Under the pieces are notes generated by a model. It was not told where the DNA came from, made no database searches, and saw nothing but the letters and a program-made list of their open reading frames with translations. This document shows positions 9,596 through 59,048 of a stretch of DNA of 64,000 bases, piece by piece. Source of the stretch: Escherichia phage outra; the sequence record MN850645.1. One strand, 5' to 3'. The position numbers and the translations under genes were made by a program. Positions within the stretch are counted from its first letter, which is position 1; every line of letters starts with the position of its first letter.

Positions 9596-9598
9596 CAG

Positions 9599-35762: not shown

Positions 35763-35773
35763 ATAACTCCTTG

Positions 35774-36787
35774 TTAAAGACTTTCAATAACTTGACGACG
35801 CAGTTCATTGGCATCTGCAAGATTATAATTAAGACGAACGTGTTCTGCAAGCATCATACCACGATCTTCTGTGTATCTAGGGTTCCTCATTAGCTTGACA
35901 ACTTCATAATGCCAAGATGCTTTAGAGTCTGCATAGATAACAGCCTTTGCATCTACCGGATTGAAGTACGGCAGCACAGGAGAACAGATAATAGGAAGAC
36001 CCTTTGCACCTGCTTCCAAAATCTTCAAATTGCTTTTACAGTTGTTGAAGTCATTATCTACCAGGGGAGCAATTGCAATGCTGTGACCGTCATACACAGA
36101 CATATACTCACCTAAATTTTTAATAGCTGGTTTATACTGTGCATTTGGAATTTTACGTTTTATTTTAACCCACTCCGCAGTAGTTAGATACTGACTGTTA
36201 TTTCCAACAGGTGCAGAAGGATACACTTCATACCCTGCAATTGTCAATAGTGTATCATCAAATGTATTAGCTACAAGAGATAAATCAGGCTCGTGGCTTG
36301 CTCCTCCAGCCCAGATAATAGGCGTGTCAGAATTACGGTCTTTTGTCAAAGTAAATTGACCTTCGTCGTAAGGTAGTGCGTTTCTAATTACGACAACATT
36401 ACGATTTAAATGACGAATTTTGTAAGCTAGGTATTCTGTTGTTACAGTAACAACATCTGCTAACTTAACCATCTCTACAATAGTCTTTGAATGATTAGTA
36501 AATACGCCAGCCATATAATGTTCAGGATTAAGTGAATAAAAGTCATCTAAATCAACAATAATCTTAACACCTTGTGCCTTCAGGCGTTTAACCTCGTCTG
36601 CTCCACGAGAATACACTCTATTAAAAACTAAAACGTCTTTCTTAGGTTTAAACGTATTTCCAGCAAATGGCATTACAATACGATGGTAATCACAACCACT
36701 GCCTAACTTATTATCACACTTAAGTACAGGAGTATTAGGATTTACCATATTTTTGAGCCTCCTCATAAGAGATAAAAGTTTTACCAT
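35774..36787 (-). CDS. glycosyltransferase-like protein, GT-B fold candidate (paralog 2)
   Basis: 337 aa; tandem paralog of 34818-35762. Alternative in-frame starts at 36766 and 36748, the latter with a GAGGAGG RBS. Confidence 0.45.
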   Translation of the reverse strand: MVKLLSLMRRLKNMVNPNTPVLKCDNKLGSGCDYHRIVMPFAGNTFKPKKDVLVFNRVYSRGADEVKRLKAQGVKIIVDLDDFYSLNPEHYMAGVFTNHSKTIVEMVKLADVVTVTTEYLAYKIRHLNRNVVVIRNALPYDEGQFTLTKDRNSDTPIIWAGGASHEPDLSLVANTFDDTLLTIAGYEVYPSAPVGNNSQYLTTAEWVKIKRKIPNAQYKPAIKNLGEYMSVYDGHSIAIAPLVDNDFNNCKSNLKILEAGAKGLPIICSPVLPYFNPVDAKAVIYADSKASWHYEVVKLMRNPRYTEDRGMMLAEHVRLNYNLADANELRRQVIESL

Positions 36788-37421
36788 TGCGAAGATCCTC
36801 CAAGGATTGTTTATATTGTTCCCAGTTTACACCAATCCCCTGTTCTTTCTCTTCTTTTGACAGATTCGCAAAAGGTAAAGGATTGTCTCCAAATACATCA
36901 TCAGGATGGATAAACGCCATAATTCGAATAGGACATGGCACGCCTTGAATACCTCGGTTCAAACCTGCCAGTGGAACGCGATGAATCCACTCTGCATCTT
37001 CATATCCATAACCGTGGGTGTATGAGCGGAAATAGCCAGCTTTCTCAATAACTGCACGGGAATACATACCAAACTGGCACATACCTAGTTCCCAAATAAC
37101 CACTTCCCCTTCAATACCTTTTACTTTATCTTTAAAGTATTCAGGCATACCAAAGAAATCCCAACCATTTTCCTTCGCCTGTTTTACAAAATATGTTTCC
37201 CAACCTTGAACAACAGGATAGCAATCATCATCAAAAATAAACCAGTAATCATACCCTTCATCATAAAACTTTTTCATCAGTTCATTACGAGCATATGCAA
37301 CACCTTTTCGCTCCCGATCATACTGTACAACAAAAGTAGCATTAGGATCAGTCACAAGATAATCTTTAAGAGGACGCTTACCTACAGTAATAACACCAAC
37401 ACCAATTTTTGTATTTTCCAA
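36735..37421 (-). CDS. glycosyltransferase, family 2-like (GT-A fold)
   Basis: 228 aa; TTG start after AAGGAG; N-terminal IGVGVITVGKR, then RKGVAYARNELMK and DxD motif FIFDDDCYP, as in GT2 enzymes. Confidence 0.65.
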   Translation of the reverse strand: MENTKIGVGVITVGKRPLKDYLVTDPNATFVVQYDRERKGVAYARNELMKKFYDEGYDYWFIFDDDCYPVVQGWETYFVKQAKENGWDFFGMPEYFKDKVKGIEGEVVIWELGMCQFGMYSRAVIEKAGYFRSYTHGYGYEDAEWIHRVPLAGLNRGIQGVPCPIRIMAFIHPDDVFGDNPLPFANLSKEEKEQGIGVNWEQYKQSLEDLRNGKTFISYEEAQKYGKS

Positions 37422-37430
37422 AATAACTCC

Positions 37431-37994
37431 TTAAATAATTTTATTCATGTCTTGACAATGTAAAAGGTGTGAAATAGCTTTTCTAGGATCATCATTACCT
37501 AAACGGTATGTGTGAAATAAATATAACCCACGTAGTAAACCTAGCCTTTTATTGTTAGCGTGCAATGCTTTAGAGAAAATTATATCAAACTGTATTGATC
37601 TTTCCTCAAAAGGGATTTCATTCCACAGACTCTTACGAAAGAGAAGAAAGAATCCTGCTAAGATAGCATCTGTAGGTACTTCCTCTATTGAGTTTCCCCA
37701 TTCTAGATGTGCTCTTTTTGCAATCTCAATGTGGTGTAGTATATTCGGATCTTCACTTCTTTCATTATTAAATAATTGATATGTTGATCCCAATCTATTA
37801 CAAGATGCACCAAGAACATCAAAATCAGGATTTGAACGGACTATTGATTCCAGCCAAGCAGGTTGTTCTGGAAGAAGAAACATTGTATCAATGTCTCTTA
37901 GGCAAATCCAACTATCTTCTGGTAAGACACTTATTGTGTCATTGATACCTTTTCCAATATCTCCAGAAAGATAGGGAGTTATGTGAAATATCAT
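37431..37994 (-). CDS. putative glycosyltransferase (DxD-containing), first gene of the GT block
   Basis: 187 aa; contains ICLRDIDTMF; GGAGGG RBS; assignment is weak and rests mainly on context. Confidence 0.3.
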   Translation of the reverse strand: MIFHITPYLSGDIGKGINDTISVLPEDSWICLRDIDTMFLLPEQPAWLESIVRSNPDFDVLGASCNRLGSTYQLFNNERSEDPNILHHIEIAKRAHLEWGNSIEEVPTDAILAGFFLLFRKSLWNEIPFEERSIQFDIIFSKALHANNKRLGLLRGLYLFHTYRLGNDDPRKAISHLLHCQDMNKII

Positions 37995-39999: not shown

Positions 40000-40596
40000 T
40001 TACTCGAACCAATCGTCGCCAGCGCCAAACGCTTTAACTACATCATAAATGTCAAGTCCAGCTTTACCTACACCATATGCTTTCAGTTTCCATTCGCTAT
40101 CTTCCCGCACCAGGGAGGCAACGTGGCAAATGGTATTACCTGCAAGTTCTGGAGCCAAGAAGTCAAAATCCAGCAGTTCAACGTTACGTTCATCATCGAA
40201 GATTTTAAGGAAACCTTCGGTAGCGTGACCAAGGCGTTTCTTACCCGTTTCGTCATCAATAGTGATTACGAATGCAATTTCCTGTGCTTCAGCAGAGATA
40301 TTATCCAGTGTAACATCAATCTGCTCCATTTGTCCTACACCGTCACGAACATCTTCACCTGCAAAAGTAGAACGTTCAGGATCAAATTTCTGTGCGTAGC
40401 ATACCAGGTGGCGAGGAGACAACAGTTCCGGCAGACCAGATGCATTGTGTCGGCAAATCAGAGCACTAACATCCAGATCCAGTTTTTCGTTAGATTTCCA
40501 AGAGAATTCCAGACGAATGCGTTTCAGTGCTGGTGCAATCTTTTTCAGAGAAACTTTTTCGCTAGAACCTTTTTTCAGGGAAATTTTCTGAGTCAT
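40000..40596 (-). CDS. terD: TerD-domain protein (tellurite resistance / stress protein family)
   Basis: 198 aa; alignable by eye along its length to bacterial TerD (KISLKKGSSEKVSLKK / DLDVSALI / GEDVRDGVGQMEQIDVTLDNI / SEWKLKAYGVGKAGL), including the Ca-binding-type acidic motifs; RBS AAAGGAGA. Confidence 0.8.
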   Translation of the reverse strand: MTQKISLKKGSSEKVSLKKIAPALKRIRLEFSWKSNEKLDLDVSALICRHNASGLPELLSPRHLVCYAQKFDPERSTFAGEDVRDGVGQMEQIDVTLDNISAEAQEIAFVITIDDETGKKRLGHATEGFLKIFDDERNVELLDFDFLAPELAGNTICHVASLVREDSEWKLKAYGVGKAGLDIYDVVKAFGAGDDWFE

Positions 40597-40668: not shown

Positions 40669-41463
40669 TTACGCTTTTGCTCCAAATTTTTTAACCCACT
40701 CGCCAAACTCTTCGGATAGCAGTTTATCGTAAAGTTCTTCGTCAGACAAGGACAAATCTGCAATACCGATAAAATCAACGTTATCGTATTCTTTTGCCAA
40801 GTCTTTCAGGAATTTAAAGTTTGCATTACCTACACCAACCATAAACCAGTAAACAGGAGTGTTGCGGTGTTTGTTCAGCAAACTACGTACTGCTGAAGTA
40901 TCCATGTTCTCCCCGTCAGTTTGGAAGAAAATCATTGCAGGAGTACGATCAACTTGTGCATCAGTATCTACAACCTGTTCTACAACAGTACGTGTAACTT
41001 CTACACGTTCTTTTTTACCAGTTAGTTTAGCAAGGAAACCCTTAGCCGGAACTTCTTCATACTCAACGACTTCGCGTGTAATATTTTTCATAGGTACACT
41101 ACCGAAGTATGTATCATAGATCTCTTGCATTACTGGAGCATAAGCTGTACCACCATTGATGCAAACATTAGACATACAAGAGCCGACATAATCATCATAT
41201 ACATCAGCCGTTGCAGGAGGCAGTTCAAAAGAAGAACTATTGAAAGCCCACATGTCAATCTGTGCATTATCATCAAACTTCATACCAAACGGCAGTAGCT
41301 TACCTACAAAATCACTAACAGTGCCATCACGATACAGCTCACACATACTACCCGAAATATCTAAGGCGCTACCGACACGAAGAACAACATCGTTAATCTT
41401 TTTCTTACGCAGAGATACGGTAAGAGTTTCTTGACGTTTTTTAAGACTGATTTTATTGGACAT
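40669..41463 (-). CDS. vWA-domain protein (TerY-like)
   Basis: 264 aa; MIDAS motif DISGSM near the N-terminus and later FQTDGEN; basic N-terminal KISLKKRQ; adjacent to terD and telA. Confidence 0.55.
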   Translation of the reverse strand: MSNKISLKKRQETLTVSLRKKKINDVVLRVGSALDISGSMCELYRDGTVSDFVGKLLPFGMKFDDNAQIDMWAFNSSSFELPPATADVYDDYVGSCMSNVCINGGTAYAPVMQEIYDTYFGSVPMKNITREVVEYEEVPAKGFLAKLTGKKERVEVTRTVVEQVVDTDAQVDRTPAMIFFQTDGENMDTSAVRSLLNKHRNTPVYWFMVGVGNANFKFLKDLAKEYDNVDFIGIADLSLSDEELYDKLLSEEFGEWVKKFGAKA

Positions 41464-42709: not shown

Positions 42710-43813
42710 TTAAAGTAGACCACGTTTAACAGTTTGAATCATACCATCTTCAAGAGATTGCACTTCTTGAATGTAATCAATACGAGCAGCACGGGCTTCA
42801 GTGTTGATTCGGTTAGTTTCTTCCAACATTTTAACCAAGTTTTCTTGATCACGACGTAATGTTTCAATATCCAATACTTGACGATTAGCAAGTTGTGTAG
42901 CTTCAATTTGGTTTTGTGCAGCCAAATCACTACCCATTGCAATCGCAGCATTAAATTCATTTAGTACATTGTTCTGTGTATCGGCTGCTTTCTTCTGGCG
43001 TAGACTTTCAATATACATAGAAAAGTTTGCAGAGTAAGCAGGGATAACATTATTCACAATATTACGGGCTGATCGCATCAAACTTGCAGATACTTTCTGC
43101 ATACTTTGTACACGTGGCCCCATCTGAACACATAGTAAGCGTAAGGCTTTCAGGTCTGCAATACGAATTTCAAGCAGATCCATAGTATCACGAGTACGTT
43201 GACGCTCTTCTACCTCATTTTCAGGCAGTGTATTAAGGCGAATTTCTTCTTTTTCATAAGTAGCTGTTAGAAGCTCTATATCCCTGTTTAAACTAAGGGC
43301 ATATTTTGCAATAGCCTCTTCTAAACGTTGCAGATATCGTAAAGAATCTTCTTCTTTTTTCAAGTCTGTTTGGAGTGTCTTTACCAAACCTTCAATACGG
43401 TTATTGATGGTGTCAAATTCTCCAAACAAATCTTCTTTCATACCTAAAACTTTCTTAACTAGTTTACCTAAACCTTTAGATTGTTTAATAGAGTTAGGAT
43501 CAAGTTGCTTTGCTTGCTTAATAAGCGCAGTTAAACGTTCACTCATTTCATCTCCCTGAGATGAACGCTGGTGTTTAAGCACTTCAGCATTAAGGTTACG
43601 AAGAGTAAGTCCTGCATCAGCACCAACCTGTTCAATCTCTTCACGAGACATTGGAGGCAGCATTTGTACAGGTCGTGCAACAGCAGGGGCATATACAGGA
43701 CTTGCATCCATAGCAGTTGGAGCAAACAAAGACTTACTTTTTTCTGTTGTTGCCGTGAATACACTCATTTCAGACGGTTTGCTTTTTACGGCACTGATAA
43801 AAGGACTGGACAT
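42710..43813 (-). CDS. telA: TelA-like toxic-anion-resistance protein
   Basis: 367 aa, predominantly helical coiled-coil with the size and architecture of TelA/KlaB/YaaN-family proteins; GGAGGAAA RBS; flanked by terD/vWA and terC. Confidence 0.5.
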   Translation of the reverse strand: MSSPFISAVKSKPSEMSVFTATTEKSKSLFAPTAMDASPVYAPAVARPVQMLPPMSREEIEQVGADAGLTLRNLNAEVLKHQRSSQGDEMSERLTALIKQAKQLDPNSIKQSKGLGKLVKKVLGMKEDLFGEFDTINNRIEGLVKTLQTDLKKEEDSLRYLQRLEEAIAKYALSLNRDIELLTATYEKEEIRLNTLPENEVEERQRTRDTMDLLEIRIADLKALRLLCVQMGPRVQSMQKVSASLMRSARNIVNNVIPAYSANFSMYIESLRQKKAADTQNNVLNEFNAAIAMGSDLAAQNQIEATQLANRQVLDIETLRRDQENLVKMLEETNRINTEARAARIDYIQEVQSLEDGMIQTVKRGLL

Positions 43814-44768: not shown

Positions 44769-45359
44769 TTAACGACGACGTGAGCTACTAAAACTACGTT
44801 TCGACGAAGAATAACTTTTCGAAGACTTACTATAAGAGCTAATAGGACTTGAGTAAGACTTACGAGCAGAGTAATCACTATTCACTTTTGTTGTTGATGG
44901 GCGTGAATACGTTTGTACACTTTGCTGCTTAATTGTGTTTTGTTTAGTGGTTGTATATGTATTCCCTTGTTTATCATAAAACCTATGCTTTTGTGTTGTA
45001 TATGCTTTACTATTAGTTGTAGGAGCAGCGTTGTTATTGATAATTGTTGTATTGCTACCGCCATCTCTATAACCACCACCGCCACTATTACCACTCAACA
45101 TATGACCAAGAAGCATACCTGTAGCAAACTCACCTACGCCAGAAGAACCACTGCCGCCTCCTTGCACAACAACTGTTGAAGGTTGTGCAGGTGCTGCTTG
45201 AACAACTTGAGGTGCAGGCTGATTTACATATTGTTCATCTACCATCTGATTTGGTGTTTGTTGGTAACGTTGATTTTGTACATTTTCAGAATCATCACAA
45301 CCTACCAGCAATGCACTACCTAAAACAACTGCAACAATAAAAGATTTAATGTTTTTCAT
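44769..45359 (-). CDS. lipoprotein with glycine-zipper motif and Ser/Tyr/Lys-rich basic C-terminus
   Basis: Start revised to the ATG at 45359 (GAGAGGG 7 nt upstream); signal peptide with lipobox LLVGC; GGGSGSSGVGEFATGMLLGHMLSGNSGGGG resembles glycine-zipper outer-membrane lipoproteins. Confidence 0.5.
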   Translation of the reverse strand: MKNIKSFIVAVVLGSALLVGCDDSENVQNQRYQQTPNQMVDEQYVNQPAPQVVQAAPAQPSTVVVQGGGSGSSGVGEFATGMLLGHMLSGNSGGGGYRDGGSNTTIINNNAAPTTNSKAYTTQKHRFYDKQGNTYTTTKQNTIKQQSVQTYSRPSTTKVNSDYSARKSYSSPISSYSKSSKSYSSSKRSFSSSRRR

Positions 45360-45552
45360 TTGTAACCCTCTCATTTAAAATCTCAACACAATTTTTAAAA
45401 TCCCTAGAGAAACAATACATCTGTTCTCCGTTCCTGTTGATAGTAATTGTATGGTTATCAATATATGTTGTCAAGATAAAAATCAAACAAAACAAACCTA
45501 GAGCAAAACAAATATTTTCAAACAGAATCCAAAGAACACGTAAAACCACCAT
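45346..45552 (-). CDS. small membrane protein
   Basis: 68 aa; one strongly hydrophobic N-terminal helix; GAGGTG RBS just downstream of the terC terminator. Confidence 0.35.
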   Translation of the reverse strand: MVVLRVLWILFENICFALGLFCLIFILTTYIDNHTITINRNGEQMYCFSRDFKNCVEILNERVTNEKH

Positions 45553-45591: not shown

Positions 45592-46569
45592 TTAAGCAAC
45601 AGCCTGGTCTTCTTTTTCAGGGAAGATTAAACTTGCAAGAACACCCAGCCCAAGAGTACCTAACACAATATACATACTGATCGTCGGGTCAATGTGTGCT
45701 GGCAGGAAACTCACTTTTGCGTGCAGAGTTTCTGCAAACGGGTGATACATCAGTTTTACACCCACAAACACCAGGACTACGATAACTGCTTTCTCCAGAT
45801 GAACCAAATACTTCAGTGCAACACTAAGAACAAAGAACAGAGCACGTAAACCTAAGATTGCACAGAGCATCGAAGAGAACACCAGCAGAGGTTCTTGTGT
45901 CACTGCAATTACTGCTGGAACAGAGTCTACTGCAAAGATTACGTCAACCATTTCCATTACAAACACACAAACCAGAGCCGGAGTTGCTACACGAACACCA
46001 TTTTTGATTGTGAAGAACTTCTCACCATCCATCTGATCAGATACAGGGAACAGCTTACGAACAATGCGAGTAGCCCAGTGTTTAGAGTAATCAACTTCTG
46101 CATCATTATCTCCAGCGAATACCATTTTAGCCGCACAGAAAAGGATGACAGCACCGAAGAAGATATTAACATACCAGCCCAAACTCAACAAGTAAGTACC
46201 TACTGCTACAAACACACCTCGGAAGACAATCGCACCTGCAATACCCCAAAGTAGAATCTTGTGCTGCAAGTGTGTGCTTTTAATACCAAAACTTGCGAAT
46301 ACTGCTACAAATACTACTAAGTTATCTACAGAAAGAGATTTCTCCAACACATACCCACTCAAGAACAAGCTCGCAAAATCAGCACCGTGTTGGAAGTATA
46401 CAAAACCATAGTAGGCTAATGATACCCCAATCCAGAAAATTGACCAGCCAATTGCAGATTTAAATGAAATTTCTTTGTTTTCTCTGTGTCCAAAGAAGTC
46501 AATACAAATCGACAAGACTAAAATACCCACTAAAACAACCACATCAATAATTGGGAAACCCAGTTGCAT
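45592..46569 (-). CDS. terC: TerC-family integral membrane protein
   Basis: 325 aa; multiple TM helices; EKSLSVDNLVVFVAVF matches the TerC-family signature; RBS AAAGAGGAG. Confidence 0.75.
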   Translation of the reverse strand: MQLGFPIIDVVVLVGILVLSICIDFFGHRENKEISFKSAIGWSIFWIGVSLAYYGFVYFQHGADFASLFLSGYVLEKSLSVDNLVVFVAVFASFGIKSTHLQHKILLWGIAGAIVFRGVFVAVGTYLLSLGWYVNIFFGAVILFCAAKMVFAGDNDAEVDYSKHWATRIVRKLFPVSDQMDGEKFFTIKNGVRVATPALVCVFVMEMVDVIFAVDSVPAVIAVTQEPLLVFSSMLCAILGLRALFFVLSVALKYLVHLEKAVIVVLVFVGVKLMYHPFAETLHAKVSFLPAHIDPTISMYIVLGTLGLGVLASLIFPEKEDQAVA

Positions 46570-46587: not shown

Positions 46588-46606
46588 GCGGAGGACAATC
46601 CTCCGC
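46588..46606 (-). promoter_or_regulatory. stem-loop in the terC 5' leader (GCGGAGG-ATTGT-CCTCCGC)
   Basis: Perfect 7 bp G/C stem between a predicted promoter and the terC RBS; no U-tract. Confidence 0.4.
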
Positions 46607-46646: not shown

Positions 46647-46895
46647 CTAGTTCAGTTCTGTAATTTTAAGTTTATCTTCTTTGTTAATGACAGGGAAAGC
46701 TACAGCATCACCTACGTCATCAATAAAGCAAATAGCAAGACCACCTTCCACTTTGCTGATTTGACCATTAAAGGCGTGATACGGGGCAGGAACTTGATCT
46801 CCATCTTCAAGGAGAATAGCCTCGTAAACCTTGCCGATAGTACAATCACGAGTGTTTCTAAATTTTTCAAGCACTTCAACATTTACTTTACGCAT
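46647..46895 (-). CDS. hypothetical protein
   Basis: 82 aa; GAGAGGA 8 nt upstream. Confidence 0.4.
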   Translation of the reverse strand: MRKVNVEVLEKFRNTRDCTIGKVYEAILLEDGDQVPAPYHAFNGQISKVEGGLAICFIDDVGDAVAFPVINKEDKLKITELN

Positions 46896-46909
46896 ATAAA
46901 AATCCTCTC

Positions 46910-47116
46910 TTATTTGTTAGATTGAAAGATACCACGAAGTACCGCAAGAATGAACGTCACACAGACTACACTCCAAAACGTTACAGGAACATGATGCCAG
47001 TCTAAGCCGATAATGTCAATCATATAGTTGTATGCTAAAAGCAGTAGCCAACTAGGGATTAACACAATCAAAAACACAACAATAAAACAACCTAATACTG
47101 CTAAAACACCTGCCAT
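46910..47116 (-). CDS. small membrane protein (two TM helices)
   Basis: 68 aa; AAGGAGA 5 nt upstream; two hydrophobic helices. Confidence 0.45.
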   Translation of the reverse strand: MAGVLAVLGCFIVVFLIVLIPSWLLLLAYNYMIDIIGLDWHHVPVTFWSVVCVTFILAVLRGIFQSNK

Positions 47117-47125
47117 ACTTTCTCC

Positions 47126-47842
47126 TTATTTCAGTTTGTAAACAATTACATTTAAACCTTTGTTTACTAGAGTTTCTTCGATCATAAGTTTTACAATACT
47201 CCAAGAACCTCCAGCCAAACCACAACCAAGCATTGGTAAACCTACAATTTTACCGCCTGAAGATACAACATCGTCTCCCATACTATCTAACGCATTGTAG
47301 ATAGCTTCATAATTCAGGTCACGCTTACCTTCCTCACGACGACTATAACCATATTGTCCATATAAATTATAAATTGTCAAATTGTTTTCTATATATTTGG
47401 TAAACGTACCTAATTTTTTATAATCACCATGTTTAGTGGCACAATCTGCTTTAAACGCACCAGGCCACTTGCTTTTAATTTTTGGTGCAATACCACTACC
47501 CATAGTGCAAAAACAGTTACAGCAGTGTGCTATAGCGTCTATATCGCCTCTCTCGGCTGCTGCTAAAAGATCACCGTATACCTCAATGATACCTGCCGGA
47601 TAACTTGTTACAATTTCATCTTCCCAATACATTTTCTCTACACCACCGATCAGTGCAAAGTTTTGTGTAATGCGATCATCAATATAGTTAAGACCTGAAA
47701 CATACACAGCATATTCATCCTGTGCTGTAATACCTTGTACACGAATTCTTAAGACACCATCTTTATCTGTTGCTACACGCCCAAAATCTTTTTCTGTAAT
47801 ATTGGTGATAGGATCTCCGAAAGTCATTACTTTATTAGACAT
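47126..47842 (-). CDS. macrodomain protein, TARG1/DarG-type ADP-ribosyl hydrolase candidate, with extra N-terminal domain
   Basis: C-terminal ~150 aa match TARG1-type macrodomains (GDLL...AIAHCCNCFCTMGSGIAPKIKSKWP ... LGCGLAGGSWSIVKLMIEE ... VIVYKL). Start revised to the ATG at 47842 (AAAGGGG 6 nt upstream, overlapping the upstream stop). Confidence 0.7.
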   Translation of the reverse strand: MSNKVMTFGDPITNITEKDFGRVATDKDGVLRIRVQGITAQDEYAVYVSGLNYIDDRITQNFALIGGVEKMYWEDEIVTSYPAGIIEVYGDLLAAAERGDIDAIAHCCNCFCTMGSGIAPKIKSKWPGAFKADCATKHGDYKKLGTFTKYIENNLTIYNLYGQYGYSRREEGKRDLNYEAIYNALDSMGDDVVSSGGKIVGLPMLGCGLAGGSWSIVKLMIEETLVNKGLNVIVYKLK

Positions 47843-48692
47843 AATAATCCCCTTTAACATTAGATTTGTTGATAATGTTGCTTTCAAAAAATTGACGTAG
47901 GAAATCAAAGTTCTCTTTATATTTTTCAATGTTATTGTAGCCTTCTGCAAGGCAACCAAAGAACAGTTGTTCTACATAATACAAAGGAAGCTGTGAAAGT
48001 GCAATTTTAAAATCAACTTCGCTTTGACTCATTAGATACTTAATAGGACGAACCAAACATTTAGCATCAGTTTCTTGTTTAATCATTTTAATAAAAGCTG
48101 CCAGGTTATTGATATAGTTGAAGTTAAGTGCAGCTTCGGTATTGGCTTCTGTACCTTCATACTTTGCAAAGTACAGGAAAAACGTATCGTTTTCAACACC
48201 TTCTTTGTCTAAAATTTCAATAAGTTTTTCTTCGTGCGTTCCTGTAATATTAACATCATCAATGAAAATCAGAGTTTTATTACCCCAGAAATCACGATTG
48301 ATAGAGAAAGTGTCACCATCGATCAAAGCCTTACGATCTTCTTTGCTAAGAAATCCATAATCATTGATATAGCTCACTTTACGATGAACGATATCCCACT
48401 CCACTGCTTTACCTCCTTTGATAGAGATTAGGTAGTTGAGGTGATCTACAAAATGTTCAGATAACACTGTAGCTGCATTTTTCACATAGTTATATGGAGA
48501 TGGAATAACAACAAAACTTTCATTTACCAGTCGTTCTTCATACTTGGAAAAGAAACTTTCAGCCAGAATGCGCCCCATTCTTTTTGCTGCCTGGTTACTA
48601 CCAAACTTTAGCTTGGAATAATCTGCAATGTTAAATTTTGCTTCCTTCAGGTTAGTAAAAGTATTAGCAAAATGTTGAATTTGATTACGCAT
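47835..48692 (-). CDS. phosphoribosyltransferase (PRTase type I fold) protein with C-terminal extension
   Basis: 285 aa; PRPP-binding-loop-like motif LIFIDDVNITGTHE; AAGAGGAA RBS; start overlaps the HAD gene by 8 nt. Confidence 0.55.
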   Translation of the reverse strand: MRNQIQHFANTFTNLKEAKFNIADYSKLKFGSNQAAKRMGRILAESFFSKYEERLVNESFVVIPSPYNYVKNAATVLSEHFVDHLNYLISIKGGKAVEWDIVHRKVSYINDYGFLSKEDRKALIDGDTFSINRDFWGNKTLIFIDDVNITGTHEEKLIEILDKEGVENDTFFLYFAKYEGTEANTEAALNFNYINNLAAFIKMIKQETDAKCLVRPIKYLMSQSEVDFKIALSQLPLYYVEQLFFGCLAEGYNNIEKYKENFDFLRQFFESNIINKSNVKGDYYV

Positions 48693-49341
48693 TAATAAGT
48701 TCCTCTTTTTTAAGTTTAGCCAACAAGTCTTCTGGATTAATAATATGACAGAACTTCATCCCTATGTCAACAGCTTTTCCATCATAGATCAAACTATCTC
48801 CAACGTGTAAGATCTCCTCTGGTGCGAGATCAAACGTTACCATTTCATCAAAAGAGAGTTTAAAAAACCTAGGATCTGGTTTACACAAGCAAAACTCGTC
48901 AGAAAAATGCATAAAGTCGAATGGTAATTTTGTCAAGCCAGAATATACAGCTAAAAAACTACCAGGTACAAAATTAGTATTGCTTTTAATACTCAAAGAA
49001 TAGGTTGAACTTAGCTCTTCCAACTTCTTGCAAAGTTCAGGGTTTAATGTTGGAGGATGTTTTATAAACATTGCTAAACAGTCTCTTTTTAACCCATCTA
49101 CTTTATCAAGATCAATGTTCAAACGAGCAGAAAGTGTTTCCCAAGCATTTCTAGATGTTCCACAAATGCCTTTTTCTGCTTTTAAATCCAGGAGAGTTTT
49201 TACCTCTTTATATACGGTAGCTGCTTCTACCTCAGAACAAGAGGCATACTCGGCAATAACCTTGTTGCGTTCTTCTGCATACAAAGGATTAGCAGTAATA
49301 AGAGTATTCCATACATCAAAAGAAATATGCTTAACAGTCAT
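48685..49341 (-). CDS. HAD-superfamily hydrolase (phosphatase / nucleotidase-like)
   Basis: Start revised to the ATG at 49341 (GGAGGA 6 nt upstream); motif I FDVWNTL (Asp+2 replaced by Trp) and motif IV HVGDSLIYDGKAVDIGM. Confidence 0.5.
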   Translation of the reverse strand: MTVKHISFDVWNTLITANPLYAEERNKVIAEYASCSEVEAATVYKEVKTLLDLKAEKGICGTSRNAWETLSARLNIDLDKVDGLKRDCLAMFIKHPPTLNPELCKKLEELSSTYSLSIKSNTNFVPGSFLAVYSGLTKLPFDFMHFSDEFCLCKPDPRFFKLSFDEMVTFDLAPEEILHVGDSLIYDGKAVDIGMKFCHIINPEDLLAKLKKEELINA

Positions 49342-49510
49342 TTTTAATCCTCCGTCCAAAAGAATATCATCTGCTTAATTTTATTGATCTCTTGATGTAG
49401 TAACTTTCCAGCATGTGATTGATCTTTAATATTGACAGCAAGAATTTCAAGTTCCGTTAGTTTTTCTTGGATAGCTTTATATTCATCATCTGTAAGCATT
49501 TTCTTCCCCT

Positions 49511-49702
49511 TTAGAATGGTAATCTTTGTATGTCACTTATCCCCACACCAAGAAGTCTAGCAATATCCTTATCTAAAAGCAACTCTTTTTGTTCTAAAAT
49601 GTTAATCAGATCTCCTAATACTTCTTTAATGTCACGATCATTTTTAGCAACGTGACCACCTGCGGTATCAACTTTATCTTTAAAAACAAAATAATGATCC
49701 AT
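49511..49702 (-). CDS. hypothetical small protein
   Basis: GGAGGG RBS 4-5 nt before the ATG at 49702; preceded by a terminator hairpin. Confidence 0.35.
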   Translation of the reverse strand: MDHYFVFKDKVDTAGGHVAKNDRDIKEVLGDLINILEQKELLLDKDIARLLGVGISDIQRLPF

Positions 49703-49711
49703 AATACCCTC

Positions 49712-49743
49712 CATACAAATAAAGGAGGCTTTCGCCTCCTTTT
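49712..49743 (-). terminator. rho-independent terminator after the AAA+ ATPase gene
   Basis: Hairpin AAAGGAGGC-GAAA-GCCTCCTTT followed on the minus strand by ATTTGTAT. Confidence 0.55.
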
Positions 49744-53285: not shown

Positions 53286-54236
53286 TTAGTCAAGGTTTTT
53301 GGTAATACGTGTACAACCATCAGAAGTCAAACCGTCAACTTGAGTTTCCCAAGTGCCATGAATATTTCGGAACAATGTTGTTACACCTTTTGGTTCATTA
53401 ATAATGATTGCCATAACAAGTTTAGGATCGATAACAGACATAATCTTTTCCTCAATACCCTCTGTAATAACATTATTACGCACAATATTAATTACATCTT
53501 CTTGTACAGAAAGGGTACTTACGTTCTTAAGAGTATATACCTGCTGCGTAGTGTAAATGATACGAACATAACTTACAGAACGAGTAGGCACAGGTTTACG
53601 CGGTCGGCGAAAACGTGGTTTTGGTGAAGATTCAGTCTTACTTTCATTTTTTGAATAATACTCCTCAAACAGTTTAGTAAATGTTTTTACATCAACTACA
53701 AACCGATCTTTCCTATATGGAGAATTCTTATGTGCACCATTAATACCACTGTTTTCATCGAAGAAAGTAATGTTTTCTTCAGTTGAATATGTTAGATAAT
53801 GGTCTGCATCTTTCCAATGTGGTTGTGGACAATGCGGATTACAAACGGAAAGCAGATAACTAATATCTTCTTCCGTTGCACTAGTATCCAGGAAACACGT
53901 ATTGTGCACAGTCAGTTGTACTTTTGCAACCATATCCATTTCTTTATCCTCGTTGGCAAGATATTCAGTACGAATAATTTCCAGAAAACCTTCAGGTGTT
54001 ACTTCCATAAATGTGTATTCAGGGTGAAGTTCCATATATTCAAATCCACAACCATCTAATTGCTGTAGGAAGTTAGGATAGAAGAACAAGTCATTAACAC
54101 TATGAATCAGATCATTGATTTCTGCTTCAGATGTGTAACCAAAACTTTTGTGAATTGCTTCATTAAGAATATGCAGGATACCCATCTCTTCTGCTGCTTT
54201 TTTAACTTCCAGTTTATTAGCGTAAAATGCAATCAT
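53286..54236 (-). CDS. hypothetical protein
   Basis: 316 aa; GAAGGAGAA 5 nt upstream; no motif recognised. Confidence 0.45.
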   Translation of the reverse strand: MIAFYANKLEVKKAAEEMGILHILNEAIHKSFGYTSEAEINDLIHSVNDLFFYPNFLQQLDGCGFEYMELHPEYTFMEVTPEGFLEIIRTEYLANEDKEMDMVAKVQLTVHNTCFLDTSATEEDISYLLSVCNPHCPQPHWKDADHYLTYSTEENITFFDENSGINGAHKNSPYRKDRFVVDVKTFTKLFEEYYSKNESKTESSPKPRFRRPRKPVPTRSVSYVRIIYTTQQVYTLKNVSTLSVQEDVINIVRNNVITEGIEEKIMSVIDPKLVMAIIINEPKGVTTLFRNIHGTWETQVDGLTSDGCTRITKNLD

Positions 54237-55533: not shown

Positions 55534-57270
55534 TTAGTTTACCAGTTTATTTATATCTGGTAAAAGATTTATTTCACCTAAGAAATCACCTTCACCTTCC
55601 TCTAGCCAACTCTCATATGCTTGTGCATGATTATAGTTACCATCAAAAGAATCTGCAACAAATTTTTCTACAGTTTTTCGAGATGTGCCAGCGCCAAATA
55701 CACCAAGTTTAATACCATTGATCGGTAAAGTGGTACTTGTGGGTACTTTCTCTGTTGCAACACGGTTGATATCTATAATCTCCTGTACGGTTGTGTTCCA
55801 TTGTAAGCATTTAACACAACGGGTATGCGCTACATACAGTAGGTTTCGCTCTGCCTCTTCCAGTCCTACCCATTCACCAGTCTTTTTATCATAGTTGGAA
55901 GGAAAATCATTAGCAACAATAACCTGATCCCACTCCAAACCTTTAGACTTGTGTGCTGTAGTCAGTGTGACTTTTGCTGTAGGAGAATTTCTATGCGTTC
56001 TAAGTGTATGTGCTATAGTGTTTGCCTTACCAGAAACTACGATGTTTAACAAGCGTTTAGCATCTGGATCAGCCTCTGCACACTCAACAAATTCATCCCA
56101 GTCTGCGTAAGGTAATACAGTTTCATGTTTTACTTTCTCAATATCTCCTCTCCGAAGAGCATTAACACTATCTACCATAGAGATAAAATCCCTGGTATCT
56201 ACGTTAATAATAATTTCTTCCCCATCTGCAATACGATCCATTGCCTCCATAAGCAAGGTTAAATTCTTGCGAAAGATGATAGTGTAAGGTTTTGTATAGT
56301 CTACAACATCTGATTTGTAGCTACCTACTACAGTATCAAAACCTTTACCAACCAAAGGATGACGCAAAGGTTCTTTATCGCTTAAAATCATATTGGCAAT
56401 GTTTGCCACTTTGGGGCCAAAACGGAAGCAAGCAGTTAATGGAAGCTCTGCCCCATATGTAGAGGTTTCCTTCATCATATTTTGGCTTCCACGGAACTGG
56501 TAGATGCTCTGATATTCGTCACCCACCACTACTACTTGTTTTGCAGATTTAGCATTTCGCAGAATAGACAAGAATGCAGGGTTAACATCCTGGAATTCAT
56601 CACCAAAAATAATATCATAACCAAGATCAGCACCAGATAATTCAAACAATTTTACATAGGTGTCATGCGTCATCAAAGTATCTGTGTTAGGATCGATGCG
56701 CTCTCGCCACAATTGTTTTGCATACTTAACTACTTCTGTAATTAGTTTGTGTTCGTTAATACCTTTTCTTTTAATATCTGCAAGATGTACACTAGGAAAA
56801 TGTTTACGGCTGATAAAAGGATCATCCGAAAATTCAAACTTACCTACGGTTTGCTTGATCATTAAACCGATCATAGCACGAGTTAAAAGTGTTTTCCCTC
56901 GTTTATCAATAAGATTATTAATCTTAAATTTCTTTGCTATCTCACTACCTGTACCTGCAACGTTAACATACTGTCCTTCTGGTCGTGACAGTTTTGCACG
57001 TAAACGATGATCCAGGAATTGATAGCAAATAGAATGCAATGTACGGCATTCTACATTTAGTGGCATCTTACGTCGTGCTTCTTCTGCCATGCTTTTATTG
57101 AAAGCTAAGTAAAGAATGCGATCTTCTGTACTGTTAGCCAGCAAATAAAGTGTTGACGTTTTGCCTGATCCAGATTTAGCTTGGATAGTTAAAAAGCGAT
57201 GGTCTGGAAAAGCCTCCTTAATAGCTGTCTGCTCTTCTGTTGGAGTGAAGCTCAACTCTTTCTTAGCCAT
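55534..57270 (-). CDS. superfamily 1 DNA helicase (UvrD/Rep-like)
   Basis: Walker A AKSGSGKT, motif II FGDEFQDV, motif III VVGDEYQSIYQFRG; start revised to the ATG at 57270 (GAGAGG upstream); the track start is 57309. Confidence 0.75.
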   Translation of the reverse strand: MAKKELSFTPTEEQTAIKEAFPDHRFLTIQAKSGSGKTSTLYLLANSTEDRILYLAFNKSMAEEARRKMPLNVECRTLHSICYQFLDHRLRAKLSRPEGQYVNVAGTGSEIAKKFKINNLIDKRGKTLLTRAMIGLMIKQTVGKFEFSDDPFISRKHFPSVHLADIKRKGINEHKLITEVVKYAKQLWRERIDPNTDTLMTHDTYVKLFELSGADLGYDIIFGDEFQDVNPAFLSILRNAKSAKQVVVVGDEYQSIYQFRGSQNMMKETSTYGAELPLTACFRFGPKVANIANMILSDKEPLRHPLVGKGFDTVVGSYKSDVVDYTKPYTIIFRKNLTLLMEAMDRIADGEEIIINVDTRDFISMVDSVNALRRGDIEKVKHETVLPYADWDEFVECAEADPDAKRLLNIVVSGKANTIAHTLRTHRNSPTAKVTLTTAHKSKGLEWDQVIVANDFPSNYDKKTGEWVGLEEAERNLLYVAHTRCVKCLQWNTTVQEIIDINRVATEKVPTSTTLPINGIKLGVFGAGTSRKTVEKFVADSFDGNYNHAQAYESWLEEGEGDFLGEINLLPDINKLVN

Positions 57271-57271
57271 T

Positions 57272-57748
57272 TCAACCTCTCTTAATTTGTTTAACAAGCA
57301 TAGGAACAAAATCTCGTTTTAAAATTTGTTCAATAATGTGATCAGGTAGCTGTTGGAAATTATAATTAAATGCTACTGTCTCACCTTTAGGTGTTTCTAC
57401 CCGCACATATAACATGTTACGAAGTTTATCCACTTGTGCTGTATATTCTAAACCATGTAATTGATGCATTGCAAACATCAAATCATCAGTTTCAGTTTGG
57501 AATCTATCATTTGCTTGCATCAAGGACAAGGTAAAAGGTAGATTTTCCCTAAGAGCCACCTTCTTAGGAACTAGTGAAGGAAAATACTCACCAATAACTT
57601 CCTGTGTAAGCTGGATACACTCTTTTTCAAGTTGGTTTTGTTCCTTGAGTTCACAAACACTTTTTTGTAAAGTGTTAACCTCTTTTTGCAAAGCTGCTAG
57701 TTGAGCACTTAACTTTCTTTTTTGATTACGACCAAAACGTTTAGACAT
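57272..57748 (-). CDS. hypothetical protein (basic N-terminus, coiled coil)
   Basis: 158 aa; AGGGGGGAA RBS. Confidence 0.4.
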   Translation of the reverse strand: MSKRFGRNQKRKLSAQLAALQKEVNTLQKSVCELKEQNQLEKECIQLTQEVIGEYFPSLVPKKVALRENLPFTLSLMQANDRFQTETDDLMFAMHQLHGLEYTAQVDKLRNMLYVRVETPKGETVAFNYNFQQLPDHIIEQILKRDFVPMLVKQIKRG

Positions 57749-58294: not shown

Positions 58295-58657
58295 TTAAAC
58301 GTTTTCTAAATCTTTTAAGGCATTACCCAACGTTAGAACAATAACATCGTTTGCTGCCTCTTCCCCATTGATATTGGTGAAATTTGGTGTGACAAAAGTA
58401 ACCATATAAAACTCGTCCACCTGGAAGACAGCAATAACACCATCCATCTTAACATCTTGACGAAAGGAAAAACCAATCATCTTCTCTTGCAAAGGCATAT
58501 CCCCTTCCTTCATTACCGCCAGGGAGTTTTCAGGAATGTTATATTTATCTGATCCGATGTAGATGTACGTAATGTTATCTTTATCGTGATGATACAGGGT
58601 TGCTTTTTCCATATCTAAACCTGACAGATCAAATACGTTAATTTCTTGTGTAGTCTT
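58295..58657 (-). CDS. hypothetical protein (start revised)
   Basis: The ATG at 58657 has GGGAGGA 4-5 nt upstream; the longer track ORF (to 58735) would overlap the upstream gene by about 100 nt. Confidence 0.4.
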   Translation of the reverse strand, partial: KTTQEINVFDLSGLDMEKATLYHHDKDNITYIYIGSDKYNIPENSLAVMKEGDMPLQEKMIGFSFRQDVKMDGVIAVFQVDEFYMVTFVTPNFTNINGEEAANDVIVLTLGNALKDLENV

Positions 58658-59048
58658 CATAAATATCCTCCCAAATCCAATAATCATCTGTGTAAGTAGG
58701 ATGCCTTTTATCCCACTCTGCTCTAGCCCAAGCAACCGCTGCTACCAACACATCACCATGACAAGGTTGAGGTGCGCAGAAGCAAACTAAGTCTTTCCCT
58801 TCTAATTCTAACAAATCCTCAAGAGTGATTTTACCACAACGAATTTGTTCCCACAACCACTCTTTATATCTTTGTATAGTTGACCCTCGTGGTTCATCAT
58901 CCTTTAACTTAAAAGGATTTGCAAACTTTGAGGCTTTTAACCCCATATGAGGCATAGCTCTGCCAATGTAAACTGCACCTTCAGGTATTACTTTACCTAA
59001 GTGGTAAAAATTTAATACTTTCATATTAACCCAAACACATCTGTGCAA
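58638..59048 (-). CDS. DUF4326-like protein
   Basis: Conserved block GKDLVCFCAPQPCHGDVL; the track start is a TTG at 59048, and an ATG at 59024 directly after the upstream stop is an alternative. Confidence 0.45.
   Translation of the reverse strand: MHRCVWVNMKVLNFYHLGKVIPEGAVYIGRAMPHMGLKASKFANPFKLKDDEPRGSTIQRYKEWLWEQIRCGKITLEDLLELEGKDLVCFCAPQPCHGDVLVAAVAWARAEWDKRHPTYTDDYWIWEDIYEDYTRN

What the first reader, a model, noticed from the sequence alone, without database searches (positions are those of the whole stretch)
47126..49341. Overlapping three-gene module: TARG1/DarG-type macrodomain, PRTase-fold protein and HAD hydrolase, adjacent to the Ter block
Three consecutive genes overlap by 8 nt each (HAD-PRTase and PRTase-macro), which implies tight co-translation. 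The macrodomain is of the TARG1/DarG type, enzymes that remove ADP-ribose from proteins and from DNA. Such a gene in a phage is a strong candidate anti-defence factor against ADP-ribosylating systems such as DarT, or part of an ADP-ribose/NAD salvage route together with the PRPP-binding-type enzyme and phosphatase. Alternatively the three genes are the PRTase/HAD biosynthetic arm predicted for Ter systems. The macrodomain also carries an unrecognised ~95 aa N-terminal domain.
Basis: partly seen in the sequence, partly recalled or inferred. Interest (0 to 1): 0.8.

Follow-up and report, generated by a model that had tools for sequence, protein, structure and literature searches.

The report
Phage macrodomain beside Ter-linked PRTase–HAD pair
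Three overlapping genes of a phi92-like E. coli phage are real, but they look like two units: a likely enzyme that strips ADP-ribose from DNA to defeat the bacterial DarT toxin, and an uncharacterised enzyme pair that travels with tellurite-resistance (Ter) genes.

Summary
On the minus strand lie HAD (48685-49341), a PRTase_3 phosphoribosyltransferase (47835-48692) and a macrodomain protein (47126-47842), with 8-nt ATGnnTAA overlaps, 557 nt from TerC. The window is a Justusliebigvirus (100% identical to phage ESCO8). BASEL GenBank records already name the three genes.

The evidence favours two units, not one pathway. HAD sits directly upstream of PRTase_3 in 39/39 loci examined (phages, rhizobial plasmids). 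Ter genes lie near the pair in about half of the loci, in varied arrangements. This fits the published, untested prediction of a Ter-linked "nucleoside-like metabolite" arm. The macrodomain adjoins the pair only in Stephanstirmvirinae-like phages, and its family occurs in 2,975 phage records.

The macrodomain has a TARG1/DarG-class fold (TM 0.91 to TARG1) but lacks both catalytic residues (Q163, A210). It matches the Gln-type SCO6735, a proven thymidine-ADP-ribose DNA hydrolase. It is 31% identical to the RB27 orthologue of T4 Tk.4/AdfM, a genetically shown anti-DarTG2 factor. Anti-DarT is therefore the best-supported reading.

The N-terminal 88 aa are homologous to the N-domain of a MazG-like gene that separates PRTase and macro in sister phages, which points to a gene fusion.

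Verdict: new member of known kinds, moderate interest.

The parts
48685..49341 (-). HAD-superfamily hydrolase, 218 aa. Motif I is FDVWNTL: the nucleophile Asp is present but Asp+2 is Trp. Motif II is SNTNF, motif III KP, motif IV HVGDSLIYD.
   Evidence: Pfam PF00702 6.5e-6. NCBIfam HAD-IA subfamilies score far below their cutoffs. phrog_14393 2.5e-119. Motifs were read from a 19-sequence alignment. Closest solved chain is 2om6, which also has DVWNT.
47835..48692 (-). PRTase_3 (ComF-like) type I phosphoribosyltransferase, 285 aa. PRPP-binding loop is IFIDDVNITGTHE. A C-terminal helical domain (aa ~195-280) has no structural match.
   Evidence: PF15610 1.1e-41. 46 invariant columns across 31 homologues of 44-81% identity, including D145 D146 T150 G151 H153 E154. 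AF2 model pLDDT 91. Foldseek finds HGXPRT, ComF and PyrR at E ~1e-5, with TM only 0.3-0.5.
47126..47842 (-). Two-domain protein, 238 aa: N-terminal beta-rich domain (aa 1-~88) fused to an ALC1/TARG1-class macrodomain (aa ~85-238).
47126..47590 (-). Macrodomain proper, of the Gln type. H106, N109, Q163, G165, G206 and G208 correspond to SCO6735 His24, Asn27, Gln85, Gly87, Gly126 and Gly128. A210 occupies the position of TARG1 Asp125.
   Evidence: pLDDT above 90. Foldseek TMt 0.91 to TARG1, 0.83 to BT1257, 0.80 to DarG. Alignments. N109 and Q163 are invariant in 62 homologues. Residue roles are from PMC9411070.
47578..47842 (-). N-terminal domain with motifs KDxGRxA, FxIIGG, MYWED and (D)YP. It is homologous to the N-domain of a MazG-like protein in sister phages.
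   Evidence: BLASTP 28% identity, E 6e-7, to L003 5457-6011. Five-sequence alignment with 12 invariant columns. The sister protein is a MazG-like pyrophosphatase, phrog_1247 1.7e-23. The model has low confidence here, pLDDT 34-65.
45592..46569 (-). TerC membrane protein, the nearest member of the Ter block.
   Evidence: PF03741 1.2e-38. A TerC homologue lies within 7 kb of the HAD-PRTase pair in 13 of 24 loci.
42710..43813 (-). TelA
   Evidence: PF05816 7.9e-34.
40669..41463 (-). vWA-TerF-like protein
   Evidence: PF10138 7.2e-39.
40000..40596 (-). TerD
   Evidence: PF02342 5.1e-28.
49721..49742 (-). Terminator-like hairpin after the AAA ATPase gene. It is a possible upstream boundary of a seven-gene unit running 49714 to 46647.
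   Evidence: Consensus scan only.
46588..46606 (.). GC-rich hairpin between the 82-aa ORF and TerC. A sigma70-like promoter (46646-46619, minus strand) overlaps this gap, just upstream of the hairpin in the minus-strand direction. This is a possible downstream boundary of the unit.
   Evidence: Consensus scan only.
46647..47116 (-). Two small ORFs packed downstream of the macro gene: 68 aa, hydrophobic by inspection of its sequence (GenBank: 'integral membrane protein'), and 82 aa. The 68-aa ORF is conserved in Stephanstirmvirinae-like loci.
49344..49714 (-). Two small ORFs (67 aa and 51 aa) packed upstream of the HAD gene.

Best explanation
The three genes are co-expressed neighbours that form two functional units.

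Unit 1 is the macrodomain protein. It is most likely an orphan 'antitoxin-like' ADP-ribosyl glycohydrolase. It would remove ADP-ribose that DarT2-type toxins attach to thymidine in phage single-stranded DNA, and so restore replication. It belongs to the Gln-type subgroup typified by SCO6735 and T4 Tk.4/AdfM. In SCO6735 a glutamine (Q163 here), held in place by an asparagine (N109 here), positions the distal ribose, and no Lys/Asp catalysis is involved. Its extra N-terminal domain came from fusion with the N-domain of a MazG-like gene that still separates PRTase and macro in sister phages. The role of that domain is unknown; targeting or partner binding is an inference.

Unit 2 is the obligate HAD-PRTase_3 pair. 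The PRTase most likely joins an unknown base-like acceptor to PRPP. The HAD enzyme then processes the 5'-phosphoribosyl product. The result would be the ribosylated 'nucleoside-like' small molecule predicted for Ter systems, acting with the adjacent TerC, TelA, TerD and vWA proteins. Superinfection exclusion or envelope-stress management has been proposed for such systems.

Shown here: gene structure, folds, motifs, homology and gene-neighbourhood statistics. Inferred: every catalytic activity and every biological role.
For: Macrodomain:
- Pfam Macro and DarG models match aa 88-236.
- The AF2 model is confident over aa 85-238. It superposes on TARG1 (TMt 0.91), BT1257 (0.83) and DarG (0.80).
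- The best sequence match in the PDB is SCO6735 (E 7.4e-16). SCO6735 cleaves dT-ADPr on DNA, protects against DarT, and is inactivated by Q85A or N27S (PMC9411070).
- The window keeps the equivalents H106, N109, Q163, G165, G206 and G208. N109 and Q163 are invariant in 62 homologues.
- It is 31% identical (E 3e-17) to RB27 Tk.4. Knocking out T4 tk.4 (adfM) sensitises T4 to DarTG2 (preprint 10.1101/2025.11.20.689424). PhiKZ AdfM, also a macrodomain, removes DarT2 marks from DNA (PMC13309987).
- Bas60-62, phages of the same genus, carry a validated NADAR anti-DarTG1 factor (PMC11825919). This lineage is therefore under DarT pressure, as T4 is.

Two units rather than one:
- HAD lies directly upstream of PRTase_3 in 24/24 phage or metagenome loci and in 15/15 genome loci.
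- A macro gene is adjacent only in Stephanstirmvirinae-like loci.
- The macro family occurs in 2,975 phage records, against 156 for PRTase_3.

Ter link:
- TerC lies within 7 kb in 13/24 loci, TerD in 10, vWA-TerF in 9 and TelA in 9, in different orders and positions.
- Iyer et al. 2021 describe the same PRTase+HAD 'signal biosynthesis' arm in phage Ter systems (PMC7824862).

PRTase likely active:
- The PRPP loop DDVxITGTHE is invariant.
- The model has a type I PRTase core.

Fusion.
Against: - No activity has been measured for any of the three proteins.
- The window protein is only 31% identical to Tk.4, and the Tk.4 mechanism is itself inferred.
- SCO6735 Lys34 and Lys89, which position the DNA, are Ser116 and Ser167 here.
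- The macrodomain class also contains protein-ADPr, O-acetyl-ADPr and Appr1p hydrolases, so substrate cannot be read from the fold.
- The HAD family lacks the Asp+2 general acid (Trp/Tyr in 19/19 sequences). A simple nucleotide phosphatase role is therefore uncertain.
- The pair occurs without nearby Ter genes in about 8 phage loci and in rhizobial plasmids. Ter may not be required for its function.
- The macro-PRTase adjacency persists from 65% to 100% PRTase identity, and a MazG-like gene sits in the same cluster in sister phages. A functional link to the pair cannot be excluded.
Confidence: 0.6

Rival explanations
1. One three-enzyme pathway for ADP-ribose/NAD salvage. The macrodomain frees ADP-ribose, and the PRTase and HAD recycle ribose-phosphate species to counter NAD-depleting defences.
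For: All three proteins act on ribose-phosphate chemistry. The genes are tightly packed. A distant macro homologue in a 368-kb phage contig sits beside NAMPT, NUDIX and SIR2 genes.
Against: The macro gene joins the pair in one lineage only. PRTase_3 has a type I fold (HGXPRT/ComF-like), not the NAMPT/NAPRT type. No Pfam hit to NAMPT/NAPRTase, NMNAT or a Prs-like kinase was returned for the ORFs scanned in the window (one search listed only 25 of 50 families). The pair exists alone on rhizobial plasmids.
Confidence: 0.07
2. The macrodomain counters a different ADP-ribosylating defence, or regulates phage-made ADP-ribosylation. Targets could be RNA or protein ADP-ribosylation, or ADPR-derived immune signals, rather than DarT2 marks on DNA.
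For: SCO6735 also removes protein ADP-ribose. TARG1 is the best structural match. The family is extremely widespread in virulent phages, which would fit a general role.
Against: The only genetic data for a family member (T4 Tk.4) point to DarTG2 as the single significant hit. The Asn/Gln active site matches the dT-ADPr mechanism described for SCO6735.
Confidence: 0.15
3. The macrodomain is a small-molecule esterase or phosphatase (O-acetyl-ADP-ribose deacetylase or ADP-ribose-1''-phosphate phosphatase). This is what the GenBank and PHROG label 'phosphatase' implies.
For: phrog_335 is labelled 'phosphatase'. JGI names homologues O-acetyl-ADP-ribose deacetylase. The family profile matches Poa1p at E 6.7e-12.
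Against: Poa1p scores about ten orders of magnitude worse than BT1257, TARG1 and SCO6735. These labels are inherited annotation, not tests. No functionally related partner was found in the scanned ORFs of the window: Pfam scans returned no sirtuin, and Tpt1-type enzymes were not specifically searched for.
Confidence: 0.1
4. The HAD-PRTase_3 pair does not depend on Ter. It is a self-contained mobile-element cassette that manipulates nucleotide or PRPP pools, or makes an anti-defence molecule.
For: The pair occurs without Ter genes within 10 kb in XaC1-like, Caulobacter-phage and other loci. It stands alone next to repA on the conjugative plasmid pRL10. PRTase-like effectors that disturb purine metabolism are known in defence systems (ShosT, retron Eco11; abstracts).
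Against: Ter genes accompany the pair in 13/24 loci in varied arrangements. Caulobacter jumbo phages carry Ter genes elsewhere in their genomes. No PADLOC defence model matches either protein.
Confidence: 0.2

Closest known systems
T4 Tk.4 / AdfM (anti-DarT factor, macrodomain; HIDEN-SEQ preprint 10.1101/2025.11.20.689424)
   Same: Both are phage-encoded orphan macrodomains. The window protein is 31% identical over 135 aa (E 3e-17) to the RB27 orthologue. Both share the HxCNCFxTMGSG and NLYxQ motifs.
   Different: Tk.4 is a stand-alone protein of ~155 aa. The window protein has an extra 88-aa N-terminal domain and sits next to PRTase/HAD/Ter genes rather than tk/vs genes. Its function has not been tested.
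SCO6735 of Streptomyces coelicolor (PDB 5e3b), a Gln-type ALC1-like macrodomain and dT-ADPr DNA hydrolase
   Same: It is the best single-sequence PDB match (E 7.4e-16). The His24, Asn27, Gln85, Gly87, Gly126 and Gly128 equivalents are conserved, as is the GCGLAGG loop.
   Different: It is a bacterial chromosomal gene under a DNA-damage promoter. Its Lys34 and Lys89 are Ser here. It has no N-terminal domain.
DarG antitoxin (DarTG2) and PhiKZ AdfM
   Same: Same macrodomain class (Foldseek TMt 0.80; NCBIfam and PADLOC DarG models match the macro part). Same expected substrate.
   Different: DarG and PhiKZ AdfM use a catalytic Lys (K80 and K78); the window has Gln163. DarG has a C-terminal DarT-binding domain and a cognate darT gene, and both are absent here.
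Human TARG1/OARD1
   Same: It is the best structural match (TMt 0.91, rmsd 2.1 A, 28% identity).
   Different: The TARG1 catalytic dyad Lys84/Asp125 is replaced by Gln163/Ala210.
Ter-associated PRTase + HAD 'nucleoside-like metabolite' module (Anantharaman, Iyer & Aravind 2012; phage versions in Iyer et al. 2021, PMC7824862)
   Same: A member of Pfam PRTase_3 is paired with a HAD and lies next to TerC, TelA, TerD and vWA-TerF genes in a phage.
   Different: No ATP-grasp or TIM-barrel lyase partner was seen in the window. This clade is almost confined to phages and rhizobial replicons. The product and function remain unknown for the whole family.

Membership tests
Macrodomain, ALC1-like/TARG1-like class | Macro fold with closest similarity to TARG1, DarG, SCO6735 and BT1257 | tested here: met
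   PF01661 at 29 bits against a cutoff of 22. Foldseek TMt 0.91 to TARG1, 0.83 to BT1257 and 0.80 to DarG. Profile against PDB: 1e-22 to 1e-19.
TARG1 | Catalytic dyad Lys84 / Asp125 | tested here: not met
   Gln163 and Ala210 occupy these positions. Q163 is invariant and A210 nearly invariant in 62 homologues.
DarG antitoxin (DarTG2) | Catalytic Lys80 in the macrodomain | tested here: not met
   Gln163 is at the position that PMC9411070 equates with DarG Lys80.
DarG antitoxin (DarTG2) | C-terminal DarT-binding domain and an adjacent darT gene | tested here: not met
   The NCBIfam DarG model is matched only at positions 4-147 of 338, at 48 bits against a cutoff of 250. PADLOC matches positions 6-144 of 329. 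The neighbours are the PRTase and small ORFs.
SCO6735-type (Gln) dT-ADPr hydrolases | Asn27, Gln85 and Gly128 equivalents, which are essential for activity | tested here: met
   N109, Q163 and G208 are present, as are H106, G165 and G206. The Lys34 and Lys89 equivalents are Ser.
AdfM (phage anti-DarTG2 macrodomain) | Sequence homology to T4 Tk.4 | tested here: met
   31% identity, E 3e-17, to the RB27 Tk.4 orthologue.
AdfM (phage anti-DarTG2 macrodomain) | Protects the phage from DarTG2 and removes dT-ADPr from DNA | not testable with these tools
   This needs plaque assays and a de-ADP-ribosylation assay.
Type I phosphoribosyltransferase / Pfam PRTase_3 | PRPP-binding loop (hydrophobic stretch, then DD-x-x-TG-T) and the PRTase core fold | tested here: met
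   IFIDDVNITGTHE is invariant across homologues. PF15610 scores 143.5 bits. Foldseek matches HGXPRT, ComF and PyrR.
HAD phosphatases | Motifs I-IV, including both the nucleophile Asp and the Asp+2 general acid | tested here: not met
   The nucleophile Asp and motifs II-IV are present. Asp+2 is Trp or Tyr in 19/19 family members. The protein is a HAD-fold member, but phosphatase chemistry is not assured.
Ter-associated biosynthetic module | PRTase and HAD genes linked to TerD, TerC, TelA and vWA-TerF genes | tested here: met
   Window layout. Census: TerC in 13/24 loci, TerD in 10, vWA in 9, TelA in 9.
Ter-associated biosynthetic module | Accompanying ATP-grasp amidoligase and TIM-barrel lyase (the full bacterial version, as I recall it from Anantharaman 2012, which could not be read) | tested here: not met
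   Pfam scans of window ORFs returned no such domain. One search listed only 25 of 50 families, so this check is incomplete.
Phage NAD reconstitution pathways (NARP1/NARP2; defining enzymes stated from my own knowledge) | Adps + Namat, or NAMPT + NMNAT enzymes | tested here: not met
   No NAMPT/NAPRTase or Prs-like hit in the module. PRTase_3 has a type I fold.

The most novel reading that the evidence does not exclude
The HAD-PRTase_3 pair could be a self-contained small-molecule synthase carried by mobile elements (virulent phages and conjugative rhizobial plasmids). It would make a so far unidentified ribosylated metabolite, using a HAD subfamily that lacks the usual general-acid Asp. In Stephanstirmvirinae this chemistry would be functionally coupled to the adjacent MazG-like and macrodomain enzymes through their shared N-terminal domain. 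That would make a nucleotide-centred counter-defence or exclusion operon that also feeds the Ter proteins.
Probability: 0.12. Interest if true: 0.75.

Novelty: new member of a known kind. Interest (0 to 1): 0.42.

Why it matters
If the macrodomain is an anti-DarT2 enzyme, phi92-like therapeutic phages would carry both arms of DarT counter-defence, as T4 does: a NADAR factor (AdfN, validated in Bas60-62) and a macrodomain. The Gln-type macrodomain would then be the common phage solution, since the family occurs in 2,975 phage records.

The HAD-PRTase_3 pair is a clean, compact and strictly conserved entry point to an old open question. What the Ter system's predicted "nucleoside-like metabolite" is remains unknown, and so does what Ter genes do in phages. 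Two small genes from a culturable E. coli phage could be expressed and their product identified.

The N-domain fusion gives a natural handle on how phage accessory enzymes are recombined.

Tried and rejected
1. Anantharaman et al. 2012 (PMC4104200), the source of the Ter PRTase/HAD prediction, is not held in the library. I relied on Iyer et al. 2021 instead.
2. A literature search for PF15610, PRTase_3 and 'PRTase ComF-like' found no papers. Searches on phi92, Stephanstirmvirinae and macrodomain found no functional work on this module.
3. A profile search with the N-domain alignment returned only fragments. An exhaustive phmmer search of 1.84 billion representatives found 6 clusters. This gave domain-shuffling examples but no functional clue, and Pfam finds nothing in the domain.
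4. The PRTase fold search gave only distant type I PRTases (TM 0.3-0.5). It gave no substrate inference and no match for the C-terminal helical domain. The PDB sequence search gave nothing.
5. I looked for the validated NADAR AdfN(Bas60) gene inside the window by motif regex and Pfam scans and did not find it. It may lie outside the 64-kb window. The DUF4326 protein at 58638-59048 has no PDB match, so a NADAR relationship could not be tested.
6. The single-pathway reading was considered and set aside on the co-occurrence census.
7. I considered that the overlaps are special and rejected it, because overlaps are common in this genome.
8. PADLOC has no model for the PRTase or the HAD.
Full report
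**What is there**

The window is a phi92-like E. coli myophage of the genus Justusliebigvirus (Stephanstirmvirinae). The 2.5-kb region is 100% identical to phage vB_EcoM_ESCO8 and 98-99.6% identical to dozens of others, including BASEL phage Bas62/JohannJBalmer.

Three minus-strand genes are packed head to tail:
- HAD, 48685-49341, 218 aa.
- PRTase, 47835-48692, 285 aa.
- Macrodomain protein, 47126-47842, 238 aa.

The junctions are ATGCGTAA and ATGTCTAA, and each start has an SD-like motif upstream. The Ter block follows: TerC 45592-46569, TelA 42710-43813, vWA-TerF-like 40669-41463 and TerD 40000-40596. An AAA ATPase and NrdG/NrdD lie on the other side.

- BASEL GenBank records already label the genes 'putative macrodomain protein', 'putative phosphoribosyltransferase' and 'putative HAD-like superfamily protein'.
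- An alternative in-frame ATG at 47860 (244 aa, used by BASEL) would change the 8-nt overlap to 26 nt.
- Short overlaps are routine in this genome, so they say little.

Terminator-like hairpins at 49742-49721 and 46588-46606 suggest a seven-gene unit running 49714 to 46647. This rests on consensus scans only.

**The macrodomain**

Pfam Macro matches aa 106-217. The NCBIfam and PADLOC DarG models match only the macro part and score far below the DarG cutoff.

An AF2 model built on 62 homologues is confident for aa 85-238, with pLDDT above 90. It superposes best on TARG1 (TMt 0.91), then BT1257 (0.83) and the DarG macrodomains (about 0.80).

By sequence, the nearest solved protein is SCO6735 (E 7.4e-16), followed by BT1257 and TARG1. 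The TARG1 catalytic residues are absent. Asp125 aligns with Ala210 in the GCGLAGG loop, and Lys84 (DarG Lys80) aligns with Gln163. Q163 and N109 are invariant across the 62 homologues.

This is exactly the SCO6735 arrangement. In that enzyme Gln85 sits at the lysine position, Q85A and N27S abolish activity, and the protein cleaves thymidine-linked ADP-ribose on DNA. It also protects cells from DarT and inhibits DarT by direct interaction (PMC9411070). The window keeps the equivalents of His24, Asn27, Gln85, Gly87, Gly126 and Gly128. It does not keep Lys34 or Lys89.

**Link to a characterised phage factor**

The family is very large among virulent phages. tblastn finds it in 2,975 phage records, including T4-like phages. 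The T4-like hit is gene tk.4, and RB27 Tk.4 is 31% identical to the window macrodomain (E 3e-17), with the same Asn and Gln.

A 2025 preprint found tk.4 to be the single T4 gene needed against DarTG2. It confirmed this with a clean knockout and named the gene adfM. Independently, PhiKZ gp104, a Lys-type macrodomain, was shown to remove DarT2 marks from DNA (PMC13309987). Bas60-62, members of the window's genus, also encode a NADAR protein validated against DarTG1 (PMC11825919). The lineage evidently faces DarT systems.

The protein is an orphan of the Gln type. It is not a DarG or TARG1 family member in the strict sense.

**The N-terminal domain**

Most homologues are macrodomains of about 150 aa. 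Sister phages show three layouts:
- In Phapecoctavirus-like contigs a separate 184-aa gene lies between PRTase and macro.
- One 153-kb contig has PRTase followed directly by a 160-aa macro gene (L017).
- A second fused version of 230 aa, 53% identical to the window protein, exists in L007. The fusion is therefore old and maintained.

The 184-aa protein's first ~85 residues are homologous to the window's aa 10-88 (E 6e-7; alignment with 12 invariant columns). Its C-terminal half is a MazG-like pyrophosphatase (phrog_1247 1.7e-23). The Justusliebigvirus gene is therefore most simply explained as a deletion fusion that kept the N-domain and lost MazG.

The domain is rare, with 6 clusters among 1.84 billion representatives. 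It also occurs alone and fused to another module that is shared with window ORF 53286-54236. Its function is unknown, and the model there has low confidence.

**The HAD-PRTase pair**

The PRTase is a clear PF15610 member. It is highly conserved, with 46 invariant columns across 31 sequences of 44-81% identity. These include the PRPP loop DDVxITGTHE.

Its model (pLDDT 91) has a type I PRTase core that resembles HGXPRT, ComF and PyrR only distantly. It also has an unmatched C-terminal helical domain.

The partner HAD has the nucleophile Asp and motifs II-IV. The Asp+2 general acid is Trp or Tyr in all 19 family members, a feature shared with the uncharacterised PDB entry 2om6. Calling it a phosphatase is therefore an assumption.

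**Co-occurrence census**

I collected 24 phage or metagenome loci and 15 bacterial-genome loci that encode a PRTase_3 relative.
- HAD is immediately upstream in all 39.
- Ter genes lie nearby in about half of the 24 loci compared (TerC 13/24, TerD 10, vWA-TerF 9, TelA 9), in differing orders and positions.
- They are absent within 10 kb in XaC1-like and some other phages, and on rhizobial plasmids such as pRL10, where the pair stands alone near repA.
- A macro gene is adjacent only in Stephanstirmvirinae-like loci.

So the invariant unit is HAD plus PRTase_3. The Ter association is frequent but facultative, and the macro association is lineage-specific. This matches the published comparative-genomic prediction of a PRTase+HAD arm that makes a nucleoside or nucleotide derivative for Ter systems, already noted in jumbo 'and certain other related smaller tailed phages' (PMC7824862). 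No experimental work on this family was found.

**Verdict**

The finding is real, and it is largely explained by known kinds:
- An AdfM/SCO6735-type macrodomain, with a new N-terminal fusion.
- The Ter-linked PRTase/HAD pair, which was predicted in 2012 and is still uncharacterised.

The single-pathway NAD/ADPR salvage reading is not supported. Nothing here is categorically new. Three results are useful additions: the strict HAD-PRTase_3 pairing on mobile elements, the unusual HAD motif, and the domain fusion. The pair offers a tractable route to the unresolved chemistry of Ter systems.

Noticed in passing
window 47578-47842; L003 5457-6011; window 53286-54236: The macro protein's N-domain is a rare, shuffled phage domain. 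It is fused to MazG-like in sister phages, and it occurs alone as a 71-aa protein (P0247). In P0245 it is fused to a module that is 32% identical (E 3e-16) to the C-terminal ~110 aa of window ORF 53286-54236.
   Followed up: partly
window 48685-49341: The HAD subfamily has motif I FDVWNTL. The Asp+2 general acid is Trp or Tyr in 19/19 relatives, and the same motif occurs in the uncharacterised PDB entry 2om6. This is atypical for a phosphatase.
   Followed up: partly
window 58638-59048 (minus strand): This is a DUF4326 protein (Pfam E 1.8e-21). In the ESCO8 GenBank record it is annotated as 'putative ribonucleoside-diphosphate reductase 1 alpha subunit', which is a likely misannotation.
   Followed up: partly
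window 55534-57309 (minus strand): The UvrD/Rep-type helicase has no intein here (591 aa by the ORF listing). The Bas62 orthologue carries a 1,041-nt intein.
   Followed up: no
window 34818-37994 (minus strand): Four consecutive genes are annotated in Bas62 as glycosyltransferases or disaccharide synthases. Pfam gave hits for two of them: 36735-37421 has a sub-threshold match to TET-associated glycosyltransferase (PF20691, 3.9e-5), and 34818-35762 matches Glyco_trans_1_2. The target (DNA, virion or host glycan) is unknown.
   Followed up: no
window 44769-45374 (minus strand): This protein looks like a lipoprotein (signal peptide ending LVGC) and has a Ser-rich C-terminal tail. It sits inside the Ter block. 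Homologues recur near the HAD-PRTase pair in 7 loci, including XaC1-like loci where no Ter genes were detected within the flanks.
   Followed up: partly
GenBank MG065645 and MG065650 (hits H27, H105, H146): Records named 'Campylobacter phage A145' and 'B15' match these E. coli phage proteins closely. A145 is 97-100% identical to the window proteins. B15 has a Phapecoctavirus-like PRTase (64.7% to the window). The host labels look doubtful.
   Followed up: no
L005 5998-6911 (368-kb phage contig): Two tandem macrodomain genes lie beside NAMPT, NUDIX, SIR2, dCMP deaminase and NT5C genes. This is a different, NAD-centred context for the same macro family.
   Followed up: no
L008 and L010 (XaC1-like jumbo phages), about 8900-10560: In these loci the HAD-PRTase_3 pair is followed by a DUF2828/DUF7788 protein. 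It lies among RNA ligase, CCA-adding enzyme and 2H-phosphoesterase genes, and no Ter genes are nearby.
   Followed up: no
L012 5114-7293: The NrdD gene appears as two ORFs (319 and 332 aa) in one close relative (IMG/VR 2974717474), whereas it is intact in the window and in L013. This could be an insertion, an intron or a sequencing frameshift.
   Followed up: no
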